From: the human T2T-CHM13v2.0 reference genome, Homo sapiens
DNA: 64,000 nt
Direction: 5' to 3' (one strand)
NCBI RefSeq assembly: GCF_009914755.1
Contig: NC_060925.1
The translations under genes were made by a program, and so were the position numbers. Of this stretch, positions 46,295 to 49,200 are shown in pieces (the first letter of the stretch is position 1; each line of letters starts with the position of its first letter). The notes under the pieces are model-generated. The model saw only the letters and a program-made list of their open reading frames with translations, was not told the origin of the DNA and ran no database searches.

Positions 46295-49200
46295 TCAATT
46301 CCCACCTATGAGTGAGAACATGCGGTGTTTGGTTTTTTGTCCTTGTGATAGTTTTCTGAGAGTGATGATTTCAAGTTTCATCCATGTCCCTACAAAGGAC
46401 ATGAACTCATCATTTTTTATGGCTGCATAGTATTCCATGGTGTATATGTGCCACATTTTCTTAATCCAGTCTATCGTTGTTGGACATTTGGGTTGGTTCC
46501 AAGTCTTTGCTATTGTGAATAATGCTGCAATAAACATACGTGTGCATGTGTCTTTATAGCAGCATGATTTATAGTCCTTTGGGTATATACCCAGTACTGG
46601 GATGGCTGGGTCAAATGGTATTTCTAGTTCTAGATCCCTGAGGAATCGCCACACTGACTGCCACAATGGTTGAACTAGTTTACAGTCCCACCAACAGTGT
46701 AAAAGTATTCCTATTTCTCCACATCCTCTCCAGCACCTGTTGTTTCCTGACTTTTTAATGATCGCCATTCTAACTGGTGTGAGATGGTATCTCATTGCAG
46801 TTTTGATTTGCATTTCTCTGATGGCCAGTGATGATGAGCATTTTTTCATGTGTTTTTTGGCTGCATAAATGGCTTCTTTTGAGAAGTGTCTGTTCATATC
46901 CTTCGCCCACTTTTTTTGTTTTGTTTGTTTGTTTGTTTTTTTCTTGTAAATTTGTTTGAGTTCATTGTAGATTCTGGATATTAGCCCTTTGTCAGATGAA
47001 TAGGTTGCAAAAATTTTCTCCCATTTTGTAGGTTGCCTCCCATTTTGTAGGTTTCTCCCATTTTGACACGATCCCTTTTCAGGTGCAGAAAATGTGGAGA
47101 AAAAAATAAAATGTATGCTTTTTAAACATATTTCTTATTCTAAATGAAGAAATCTAATTTAGGCCTTAAGTAGGAGATTCACAAATATCTACACCTTCCA
47201 GCTCCATAAAAATTAAATTACCAAGAGTGATACTCCTATTTGGTAATTTCAAGAGGGACTGCAGCAACATAGGTTGATGGTAGTTTCTTTTGCTGTGCAG
47301 AAGCTCATTAGTTTAATTAGATCCCATTTGTCAATTTTGGCTTTTGTTGCCATTGCTTTTGGTGTTTTAGACATGAAGTCCTTGCCCAGGCCTATGTCCT
47401 GAATGGTATTGCCTAGGTTTTCTTCTAGGGTTTTTATGGTTTTAGGTCTAACATTTAAGTCTCTAATCCATCTTGAATTAATTTTTGTATAAGGTGTAAG
47501 GAAGGGATCCAGTTTCAGCTTTGTACATATGGCTAGCCAGTTTTCCCAGCACCATTTATTAAATAGGGAATCCTTTCACCATTTCTTGTTTTTGTCAGGT
47601 TTGTCAAAGATCAGATAGTTGTAGATATATGGCATTATTTCCGAGGGTTCTGTTCTGTTCCATTGGTCTATATCTCTGTTTTGGTAGCAGTACCGTGCTG
47701 TTTTGGTTACTGTAGCCTTATAGTATAGTTTGAAGTCAGGTAGCGTGATGCCTCCGGCTTTGTTCTTTTGGCTTAGGATTGACTTGGCGATGAGGGCTCT
47801 TTTTTGGTTCCATATGAACTTTACAGTAGTTTTTTCCAATTCTGTGAAGAAAGTCATTGGTAGCTTGATGGGGATGGCACTGAATCTATAAATTACCTTG
47901 GGCAGTATGGCCATTTTCACGATATTGATTCTTCCTACGCGTGAGCATGGAATGTTCTTCCATTTGTTTGTATCCTCTTTTATTTCATTGAGCAGTGGTC
48001 TGTAGTTCTCCTTTAAGAGGTCCTTCACGTCTCTTGTAAGTTGGATTCCTAGGTATTTTATTCTCTTTGAAGCAATTGTGAATGGGAGTTCACTCATGAT
48101 TTGGCTCTCTGTTTGTCTGTTATTGGTGTATAAGAATGCTTGTGATTTTTGTACACTGATTTTGTGTCCTGAGACTTTGCTGAAGTTGCTTATCAGCTTA
48201 AGGAGATTTTGGGCTGAGACAGTGGGGTTTTCTAGATATACAATCATGTCATCTGCAAACAGGGAGAACTTACTTCCTCTTTTCCTAACTAAATACCCTT
48301 TATTTCCTTCTCCTACCTAATTGCCCTGGCCAGAACTTCCAACACTATGTTGAATAGGAGTGGTGAGAGAGGACATCCCTGTCTTGTGCCAGTTTTCAAA
48401 GGGAATGCTTCCAGTTTTTGCCCATTCAGTATGATATTGGCTGTGGGTTTGTCATAGATAGCTCTTATTATTTTGAGATACATCCCATCAATACCTAATT
48501 TATTGAGAGTTTTTGGAATGAAGCATTGTTGAATTTTGTCAAAGGCCTTTTCTGCATCTATTGAGATAATCATGTGGTTTTTGTCTTTGGTTCTGTTTAT
48601 ATGCTGGATTACATTTATTGATTTGTGCATGTTGAGCCAGCCTTGCATCCCAGGGATGAAGCCCACTTGATCATGGTGGATAAGCTTTTTGATGTGTTGC
48701 TGGATTCGGTTTGCCAGTATTTTACTGAGGATTTTTGCATCAATGTTCATCAAGGATATTGGTCTAAAATTCTCTTTTTTGGTTGTGTCTCTGCCAGGCT
48801 TTGGTATCAGGATGATGCTGGCCTCATAAAATGAGTTAGGGAGGATTCCCTCTTTTTCTATTGATTGGAATAGTTTCAGAAGGAATGGTGCCAGTTCCTC
48901 CTTGTACCTCTGGTAGAATTTGGCTGTGAATCCATCTGGTCCTGGACTCTTTTTGGTTGGTAAGCTATTTTTATTGCCACAATTTCAGACCCTGTTATTG
49001 GTCTATTCAAAGATTTAACTTCTTCCTGGTTTAGTCTTGGGAGGGCATATGTGTCGAGGAATTTATCCATTTCTTCTAGATTTTCTAGTTTATTTGCGTA
49101 GAGGTGTTTGTAGTATTCTCTGATGGTAGTTGGTATTTCTGTGGGATCTGTGGTGATATCCCCTTTGTCATTTTTTTATTGCATCTGTTTGATTCTTCTC

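What the first reader, a model, noticed from the sequence alone, without database searches (positions are those of the whole stretch)
47015..47285. Fossil multi-step template-switch event: 207 bp of local unique DNA copied in inverted orientation into L1-B
Seen: native L1 runs to ...gtaggttgcct (47038). It is followed by a re-copy of 47018-47034 (microhomology ct), a re-copy of 47015-47028 (tt), the reverse complement of 44571-44777 (g), a re-copy taggttg of 47029-47035 (ta), and a return to native tgatggtag (tg) with ~9 bp of L1 lost. That is about five junctions, each with 1-2 nt microhomology, with no poly(A) or TSD. This matches FoSTeS/MMBIR or polymerase-theta templated insertion, here preserved in the assembled sequence. 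Only 3/207 mismatches (2 at CpGs) suggest it post-dates the L1 insertion. The donor contains a hairpin (aaattaccaa...ttggtaattt, ~44594-44628).
Basis: partly seen in the sequence, partly recalled or inferred. Interest (0 to 1): 0.8.

Follow-up and report, generated by a model that had tools for sequence, protein, structure and literature searches.

The report
Template-switch repair scar inside an L1
A 207-base piece of nearby unique intron DNA was copied backwards into an old L1 retrotransposon, with short stuttered re-copies at the joins; it is a clear but ordinary scar of error-prone DNA break or replication repair.

Summary
Window 47065-47271 is the reverse complement of 44571-44777 (207 nt, 3 mismatches, 2 at CpGs). 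The 207-mer has only these two places in the whole T2T genome. It sits inside a full-length minus-strand L1 (46066-52461, 11-nt target-site duplication). None of 29 other genomic L1 copies is interrupted at this point, and 27 of them show that L1-B lost exactly GTTCACTC. Three short direct re-copies (17, 14 and 7 nt) of one 21-nt stretch of the left flank (47015-47035) surround the long insert. All five joins have 1-2 nt of microhomology. Dating favours an event after L1 integration. L1-B carries 38 private changes in 2186 nt (1.74%), so equal age predicts about 11 insert/donor differences; 3 are seen (p about 0.004, rising to 0.07-0.17 if L1-B's private rate is halved). The structure matches published polymerase-theta "reiterated templated inserts from one flank" and germline MMBIR templated insertions with up to five templates. 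The sequence alone cannot separate these two. An L1 reverse-transcriptase switch onto PDE4B pre-mRNA at integration fits the orientation but is disfavoured by the dating. This is a known kind of scar and a nice specimen, of low to moderate interest.

The parts
44571..44777 (+). Donor: unique PDE4B-intron DNA, left intact (copy, not cut)
   Evidence: Only two genomic places for the 207-mer. Keeps all 3 of its CpGs.
47065..47271 (-). 207-nt inverted copy of the donor inside L1-B; 3 mismatches to the donor
   Evidence: (I2). The hub's repeat mask breaks here (46032-47056 / 47272-51780).
47015..47038 (+). Left L1 flank. Its 21 nt 47015-47035 served as template for all three short re-copies; native L1 ends at 47038 (GCCT)
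   Evidence: (D3, D9)
47037..47053 (+). Re-copy 1: direct repeat of 47018-47034 (17/17); CT shared at the join
   Evidence: D9; (47039-47053 = 47020-47034)
47052..47065 (+). Re-copy 2: direct repeat of 47015-47028 (14/14); TT shared on the left, G shared with the donor copy on the right
   Evidence: D3; (47054-47065 = 47017-47028)
47270..47276 (+). Re-copy 3: TAGGTTG = 47029-47035; TA shared with the donor copy, TG shared with the resuming native L1
   Evidence: Read. Native resumption at 47275 is shown by the BLAST of 29 relatives.
47038..47275 (.). Breakpoints in L1-B: 8 nt of native L1 (GTTCACTC) are missing between 47038 and 47275
   Evidence: 27 of 29 relatives carry GTTCACTC here, 2 carry a one-base variant, none carries an insert
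46066..52461 (-). L1-B: full-length L1PA-type element with its A-tail read as (TTTTA)n at 46066-46096; ORF2 is broken into pieces
   Evidence: Genome hits are 93-96% identical. 38 private changes in 2186 nt.
46055..46065 (.). L1-B target-site duplication, copy 1 (TCTCCTGTGTT)
   Evidence: One search compared
52462..52472 (.). L1-B target-site duplication, copy 2 (TCTCCTGTGTT)
   Evidence: One search compared
44593..44627 (+). Hairpin inside the donor (10-bp outer stem plus 4-bp inner stem); role unproven
   Evidence: z -3.87; whole donor z -1.14

Best explanation
This was one germline repair event that happened after L1-B had integrated.

A break or stalled fork arose in L1-B between ...GGTTGCCT and TGATGG... 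A free 3' end was then extended in short, aborted bouts, each primed by 1-2 nt of microhomology. Read on the + strand, there are five switches:
1. Native L1 to 47038.
2. Re-copy of 47018-47034.
3. Re-copy of 47015-47028.
4. 207 nt copied from 44777 down to 44571, 2.3 kb away.
5. Re-copy of TAGGTTG, then return to native L1 with 8 nt lost.

Read from the other end, the same structure arises differently. The right-hand 3' tail anneals four times to the left-hand single-stranded tail (47015-47038), three times to copy it and a last time to seal. It makes one long excursion to the donor duplex. That is the pattern of polymerase-theta end joining.

Shown: the anatomy, the microhomologies, the uniqueness of the donor, the 8-nt loss, and the younger apparent age of the copy. 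Inferred: that it was one event, which enzyme did it, and whether the lesion was a double-strand break (TMEJ) or a fork (FoSTeS/MMBIR). My split within this explanation is roughly 55:45 for TMEJ-like over replicative.
For: The donor is unique in the genome (2 hits).

All three short pieces come from 21 nt of one flank (47015-47035), and their templates overlap. [quoted passage not shown] Human germline MMBIR templated insertions number about 100 per person, are inverted copies of nearby templates, and include some with up to five templates (PMC8421209, passages).

Timing:
- L1-B differs from the majority of 20 relatives at 90 sites, 48 of them unique to L1-B. After adding the three closest full-length copies, 38 of 2186 sites stay private.
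- Among four full-length copies, L1-B has 128 singleton sites of about 6090.
- 2 of 3 words carrying two private variants are unique genome-wide. The one other carrier is 5.08% diverged and shares only 2 of the 38 private sites.
- With these rates, equal age predicts 10.8 insert/donor differences against 3 seen. The likelihood-ratio test gives p=0.0036 and an age ratio of 0.27 (0.07-0.69).

The 3 mismatches, 2 of them CpG decay in the insert, argue against an assembly or cell-culture artefact.
Against: The timing test weakens to p=0.07-0.17 if L1-B's true post-insertion rate is half of what I measured. Only 40 of 3,919 and 40 of 28,562 candidate L1 copies were scored, so closer relatives may be unsampled.

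Taken alone, the insert lineage (2-3 changes in 207 nt) is as diverged as L1-B (1.74%). The signal comes from the donor having 0-1 change. Gene conversion between the two 207-nt copies would make them look younger.

A 207-nt tract copied from 2.3 kb away is long and distant for typical polymerase-theta inserts (mostly under 25 nt, about 85% primed within 10 bp). One- to two-nt microhomologies are at the low end for MMBIR (average 3.7 bp).

No orthologue or population data were available here.
Confidence: 0.72

Rival explanations
1. The filler was captured during retrotransposition of L1-B. While making first-strand cDNA (the + strand here, growing from 46066 rightwards), the L1 reverse transcriptase slipped back twice on the L1 RNA. 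It then jumped to PDE4B pre-mRNA (or local single-stranded + DNA), copied 207 nt, and jumped back to the L1 RNA 8 nt further on.
For: Orientation fits. The template needed is + sense, which is the sense of PDE4B (hub annotation). In L1-B's own sense strand the insert reads in the same sense as the L1, as in known L1 chimeras (98.3% of U6/L1 chimeras are sense; preprint 10.1101/2025.02.02.635956, passages). Return to almost the same point of the L1 template is natural if that template was being copied. Template switches within L1-mediated insertions have been seen in cell models (PMC11702581, passages). CpG decay in the insert (2 of 6 CpG bases) equals that of L1-B (11 of 34).
Against: The relative-age test disfavours equal age: p=0.0036 with measured rates and an age ratio of 0.27. 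The known chimeras I read about join another RNA to the 5' side of a truncated L1. None was an internal island with L1 on both sides (passages only, not whole texts). The donor is deep, unique intron sequence 1.3 kb from the integration site, not an abundant RNA.
Confidence: 0.12
2. This was post-integration double-strand-break repair in which the 207-nt piece was an RNA-derived (reverse-transcribed) patch from the PDE4B intron transcript. That makes it a class 2 templated sequence insertion, with local stutter added at the ends.
For: Class 2 TSIPs lack a TSD and poly(A), show microdeletion and microhomology, and can derive from intronic sequence (PMC5110952, passages). All of this is seen here.
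Against: Patches of that kind come from anywhere in the genome. A donor 2.3 kb away in cis is explained more simply by proximity of the DNA itself. Nothing in the sequence, such as a splice junction or tail, marks an RNA intermediate.
Confidence: 0.07
3. Several independent mutations occurred at different times: two slippage duplications, a separate insertion and a small deletion.
For: Each piece alone is a known mutation type. Nothing here dates the short pieces (0 mismatches in 38 nt of re-copies).
Against: All pieces lie contiguously between the two native L1 breakpoints. Each join uses the end of the previous piece as its 1-2 nt primer. Re-copy 3 lies on the far side of the 207-nt insert yet copies the same 21-nt flank. 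One event is far more parsimonious.
Confidence: 0.05
4. The structure is an assembly artefact or arose only in the CHM13 cell line.
For: Polymerase-theta synthesis is error-prone (about 1 error per 30 nt in templated inserts). Three mismatches therefore do not by themselves prove evolutionary age.
Against: An assembly chimera would be 100% identical to its source. Two of the 3 mismatches are CpG>TpG/CpA in the insert, the signature of time in methylated germline DNA. The join structure is biologically coherent.
Confidence: 0.03

Closest known systems
Polymerase-theta-mediated end joining scars with reiterated templated inserts (delins), as described in C. elegans (van Schendel et al. 2016, PMC5068794)
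   Same: Both show 1-2 nt priming at every join and a small deletion at the site. Both have several overlapping templated pieces, all copied from one flank close to the break, and occasional pieces from distant sites.
   Different: The main piece here is 207 nt from 2.3 kb away, much longer and farther than typical (mostly under 25 nt and within 10 bp). Enzyme dependence is untested, and this is the human germline rather than mutagenised worms.
Germline MMBIR templated insertions (MMB-TI; Osia et al. 2021, PMC8421209) and FoSTeS/MMBIR complex junctions
   Same: An inverted copy of a nearby template is inserted at microhomology. Complex events with up to five templates are found as inherited variants in normal people.
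   Different: That scan looked only for templates within 100 bp and for inserts up to read length. Its microhomologies averaged 3.7 bp, against 1-2 nt here. No copy-number change or larger rearrangement accompanies this one.
Short-range template switches of the four-point model in great apes (Walker et al. 2021, PMC7954356)
   Same: Transient reverse-oriented copying from an alternate template creates an inverted repeat, then synthesis returns near the point of departure.
   Different: Those events are single switches with a median copied length of 12 nt (maximum 128) and templates tens to hundreds of nt away. This one has five switches, 207 nt copied, and a template 2.3 kb away.
L1 chimeric insertions by reverse-transcriptase template switching (U6/L1, mRNA/L1)
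   Same: Foreign sequence is joined in sense to L1 sequence, with short or no homology at the joins.
   Different: In those chimeras the foreign part lies 5' of a truncated L1, within one TSD. Here it is an internal island in a full-length L1, appears younger than the L1, and derives from unique intron DNA next door.
Class 2 templated sequence insertion polymorphisms (Onozawa and Aplan, PMC5110952)
   Same: No TSD and no poly(A); microdeletion and microhomology at the joins; the donor is left intact.
   Different: Those are thought to be RNA-derived and to come from distant loci. Here the donor is 2.3 kb away in cis, and nothing marks an RNA intermediate.

Membership tests
TMEJ (polymerase theta) templated-insert scar | Short (1 to a few nt) microhomology at each join | tested here: met
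   The joins share CT, TT, G, TA and TG
TMEJ (polymerase theta) templated-insert scar | Templates lie in the flank close to the break, usually one flank only, with reiterated overlapping pieces | tested here: met
   3 of 4 templated pieces copy 47015-47035, which lies within the last 24 nt before the left breakpoint. The criterion is from PMC5068794.
TMEJ (polymerase theta) templated-insert scar | Inserts are short (mostly under 25 nt) | tested here: not met
   The main piece is 207 nt from 2.3 kb away. Only about 3% of worm inserts came from distant sites.
TMEJ (polymerase theta) templated-insert scar | Dependence on POLQ | not testable with these tools
   Needs genetics
MMBIR/FoSTeS templated insertion | Inverted copy of a nearby template, with the donor retained | tested here: met
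   The donor is intact 2.3 kb away.
MMBIR/FoSTeS templated insertion | Two or more template switches at microhomology (2-12 bp in 80% of junctions, average 3.7) | tested here: inconclusive
   There are five switches, but only 1-2 nt at each, the low end of the published range
MMBIR/FoSTeS templated insertion | Arises at a collapsed or stalled replication fork | not testable with these tools
   Nothing in the sequence distinguishes a fork from a two-ended break
L1 reverse-transcriptase template-switch chimera | Foreign RNA copy joined 5' of the L1 part, the whole bounded by one TSD | tested here: not met
   The island is internal, with 973 nt of L1 on its 3' side and 5.2 kb on its 5' side. The TSD bounds the whole full-length L1.
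L1 reverse-transcriptase template-switch chimera | Same sense as the L1 | tested here: met
   L1-B's sense strand reads the donor's + (PDE4B-sense) sequence
L1 reverse-transcriptase template-switch chimera | Same age as the L1 copy | tested here: not met
   Age ratio 0.27 (0.07-0.69), p=0.0036. This weakens to 0.07-0.17 under a halved L1 rate.
L1-endonuclease-mediated insertion (class 1 TSIP / retrocopy) | Poly(A) tail, a TSD of 5 nt or more, and a TTTT/A target | tested here: not met
   There is no A-run at either end. The site GCCT/GTTCAC is not T-rich. The 7-nt TAGGTTG repeat is one of three re-copies of the flank, not a clean TSD.
Class 2 TSIP (RNA-derived patch at a break) | Microdeletion and microhomology, with no TSD or poly(A) | tested here: met
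Class 2 TSIP (RNA-derived patch at a break) | The patch derives from RNA | not testable with these tools
   No splice junction or tail is available as a marker

The most novel reading that the evidence does not exclude
The island was written by the L1 reverse transcriptase itself during integration of L1-B. After stuttering on its own RNA, it switched to the nascent PDE4B pre-mRNA passing through the integration site. It copied 207 nt of intron and returned to the L1 RNA. That would be an internal capture of host intron RNA by a full-length L1, showing double template switching in vivo and physical contact between target-primed reverse transcription and host transcription.
Probability: 0.1. 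Interest if true: 0.6.

Novelty: new member of a known kind. Interest (0 to 1): 0.25.

Why it matters
This is a clean, fully resolved natural example of multi-step microhomology-primed template switching fixed in (or segregating in) the human germline. It sits inside a repeat, where short-read scans would not see it. Its 207-nt, 2.3-kb-range excursion lies outside the search space of the published scans I read: templates within 100 bp in PMC8421209, and a maximum copied length of 128 nt in PMC7954356. Events of this size may therefore be under-counted in repeats. The case gives a concrete template for a genome-wide search of T2T assemblies. It changes nothing about the known mechanisms, and it has no evident effect on PDE4B: it lies deep in an intron, inside a dead L1.

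Tried and rejected
1. Private-mutation timing from the re-copied segments. I hoped L1-B carried a private change inside 47015-47035 that the re-copies would share. The only candidate (CATTTTG rather than the form I recalled) is the norm in relatives (21 of 29), so the test is uninformative.

2. The first dating alignment included 9 of 29 relatives that are truncated L1s with non-L1 flanks (15-29% apparent differences). I dropped L004, L005, L006, L007, L011, L013, L024, L025 and L027 and used the other 20.

I then fetched only the three best full-length hits and one further copy.

4. Single-variant word counts were rejected as a test of privacy, because parallel mutation among tens of thousands of L1 copies would give hits anyway. 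I used words carrying two variants instead.

5. Donor hairpin as cause. It is real locally, but it sits 23-57 nt inside the donor, not at a join, and the whole donor folds no better than shuffles. I assign it no role.

6. Fold-back of the L1-A/L1-B inverted arms (370 nt, 89%) as a way to bring donor and acceptor together. It shortens the path only from about 2.3 kb to about 1.1-1.3 kb, and L1-A's age relative to the event is unresolved. I kept it as a passing remark only.

Full report
**What is there**

On the + strand, L1 sequence runs to ...TTTTCTCCCATTTTGTAGGTTGCCT at 47038. The following pieces come next:
- CCCATTTTGTAGGTT (47039-47053).
- TCTCCCATTTTG (47054-47065).
- 206 further bases that, together with the G at 47065, are the reverse complement of 44571-44777.
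- GGTTG.
- L1 sequence resuming at TGATGGTAG (47275 onward).

The repeat finder reports the long inverted repeat (arms 44571-44783 / 47059-47271, 213 nt, 98%) and the two direct re-copies (families D3 and D9). A base-by-base comparison gives 3 mismatches in the 207-nt core. The six extra bases that the ungapped extension added hold 2 more mismatches and are not part of the copy.

A greedy longest-match parse against the rest of the window recovers the same pieces without any prior model. When the shared bases are counted, the re-copies are 17/17 (47037-47053 = 47018-47034), 14/14 (47052-47065 = 47015-47028) and 7/7 (47270-47276 = 47029-47035). The five joins share CT, TT, G, TA and TG.

**The host element**

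L1-B is a full-length L1 on the minus strand.
- Its antisense 5' end (...GGCCATCTTGGCTCCACC) ends at 52461.
- Its tail reads as (TTTTA)n from 46066.
- The 11-nt repeat TCTCCTGTGTT flanks it at 46055-46065 and 52462-52472.
- Its ORF2 is broken into stop-to-stop pieces of 108-365 aa.

**What the native L1 looked like**

The whole T2T genome could be searched. A 599-nt query left of the insert gave 3,919 candidates, of which 40 were scored. The best non-self hits were 95-96% identical. In all 29 fetched relatives the L1 runs uninterrupted through the site. The sequence there is GTAGGTTGCCT-GTTCACTC-TGATGGTAG: 27 of 29 match exactly in the middle 8-mer, one has GTTCACCC, and one has a 1-nt deletion. 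L1-B therefore gained 236 nt (47039-47274) and lost 8 nt.

**Uniqueness and direction of the copy**

The 207-mer has two places in the genome, the insert and the donor (2 candidates, both scored). The copy interrupts an L1 and the donor lies in continuous unique DNA, so the direction was donor to L1-B and the donor was not excised.

**Timing**

This is the one question that separates a DNA-repair event from capture during retrotransposition.

*Insert versus donor.* There are 3 differences in 207 nt. At two of them the donor keeps a CpG and the insert has TpG/CpA. The third is a non-CpG transition.

*L1-B's own post-insertion load.*
- Against 20 usable relatives, L1-B differs from the majority at 90 of about 2186 sites, and 48 of those states are seen in no relative. 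Nine of the 29 relatives were dropped because they are truncated and their flanks are not L1.
- A 5.2-kb query (28,562 candidates, 40 scored) found no copy closer than 95%.
- I fetched the three best full-length hits. Pairwise differences to L1-B are 4.73%, 6.07% and 7.14%. Singleton sites among the four are 128 (L1-B), 102, 137 and 201, of about 6090.
- Adding these three to the 20 leaves 38 private sites in 2186 (1.74%).
- As an exhaustive check, three L1-B words that each carry two private variants were searched genome-wide. Two are unique to L1-B. One has a single other carrier on contig 10. That copy is 5.08% diverged from L1-B and shares only those 2 of the 38 private sites.

*The test.* The rates used are 37/2152 per non-CpG site and 11/34 per CpG base. 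Equal age predicts 10.8 insert/donor differences over two lineages, and 3 are seen (P(X<=3)=0.006). A likelihood-ratio test gives p=0.0036 and an age ratio of 0.27, with support 0.07-0.69.

*Weaknesses.*
- If the true private rate is 0.9-1.2% and the CpG rate lower, p rises to 0.07-0.17.
- The insert lineage alone (2-3 changes) is no less diverged than L1-B. The signal is that the donor has 0-1 change.
- Gene conversion between the copies would mimic youth.
- Error-prone synthesis would make the event younger still (about 1 error per 30 nt in worm POLQ inserts; PMC5068794).

From recalled substitution rates, which no call supports, L1-B would be roughly 10-25 Myr old and the event a few Myr old. 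I put about 80% on "after integration".

**Mechanism**

Two readings fit the joins.

*Replicative (FoSTeS/MMBIR).* A nascent + strand slips back twice on its own template. It then switches to the + strand 2.3 kb behind, copies 207 nt, and returns.

*Break repair.* The right-hand 3' tail (minus strand) anneals repeatedly to the left-hand single-stranded tail (47015-47038). Each bout extends a few to 17 nt and falls off. One bout invades the donor at TA and copies 44571 to 44777. The last anneals to the terminal CT of the left tail.

The second reading has all local templates within the last 24 nt of one break end. That matches the C. elegans POLQ description: reiterated, overlapping templated inserts; 16 of 17 from one flank; single-base priming; a small deletion; and about 3% of inserts from distant sites (PMC5068794, passages).

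There are about 100 per individual at 25 bp or more, as inverted copies of nearby templates, some built from up to five templates (PMC8421209, passages).

The 207-nt length and 2.3-kb distance exceed what either scan typically reports or could detect. Templates were sought only within 100 bp. The median copied length was 12 nt and the maximum 128 nt in the great-ape scan (PMC7954356, passages). The sequence cannot name the polymerase.

**Rivals**

*L1 reverse-transcriptase switching at integration.* The orientation is compatible. The first-strand cDNA is the + strand here, so the template must be + sense, which is PDE4B sense. The island reads in sense within L1-B, like U6/L1 chimeras (98.3% sense; preprint 10.1101/2025.02.02.635956, passages). 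The timing test speaks against it. So do the internal position in a full-length element and the non-abundant intronic donor. In the passages I read I saw no internal double-switch island, but I did not read those papers whole.

*An RNA-derived patch (class 2 TSIP; PMC5110952, passages).* It shares the junction features, but it would not explain why the donor is next door.

*Stepwise origin.* This is unparsimonious, because each piece is primed by the end of the previous one and re-copy 3 lies beyond the long insert.

*An assembly or cell-line artefact.* This is unlikely given the CpG-decay mismatches.

**Comparison and verdict**

The thing works like, and most likely is, a microhomology-primed template-switch scar of the TMEJ/MMBIR class. 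It is a new, well-preserved member of a known kind, unusual mainly in the length and distance of its main excursion and in lying inside a repeat.

I searched the held library five times and found no description of this particular locus. I did not search for it by name or coordinate, so I make no claim that it is unreported.

The decisive test, which I could not run, is the state of the orthologous L1 in other apes and in the human pangenome.

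Noticed in passing
window 44091-44460 (+) and 46056-46425 (-): A 5'-truncated L1 3' end (L1-A, A-rich tail to about 44490) and the 3' end of L1-B form 370-nt inverted arms. They are 89% complementary with a 1595-nt spacer, and the donor lies in that spacer, 81 nt beyond L1-A's tail. L1-A's best genome hits are 95-97% identical, so it may be about as young as the template-switch event. 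Whether the arms or L1-A's integration had any part in the event is open.
   Followed up: partly
window 44593-44627: A locally strong DNA hairpin lies inside the donor (-8.6 kcal/mol, z -3.87). It is also present, inverted, in the insert at about 47215-47249. No link to the joins was found.
   Followed up: yes
L036 (G000:C10:68103700-68106100) vs window 47634-47656: One other L1 in the genome carries the same two adjacent variants as L1-B (47642 T>C, which makes a CpG, and 47648 C>T). Overall it is 5.08% diverged and shares none of the other 36 private sites. This could be parallel mutation or a short conversion tract.
   Followed up: partly
window 46912-46945: A (GTTT)n microsatellite within L1-B has 6 extra bases (46913-46918) relative to the majority of 20 relatives, and several apparent substitutions that are probably alignment slippage.
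   Followed up: no
window 46100-46350: L1-B's 3' UTR differs from the majority of the 20 relatives far more than the ORF2 part does: 21 differences in the first 250 nt against 1-13 per 250 nt elsewhere. This suggests the relatives found with an ORF2 query belong to a neighbouring, younger subfamily.
   Followed up: partly
window 32300-38289: The hub's mask lists another nearly continuous 6-kb repeat block, probably a second long L1. I did not examine it.
   Followed up: no
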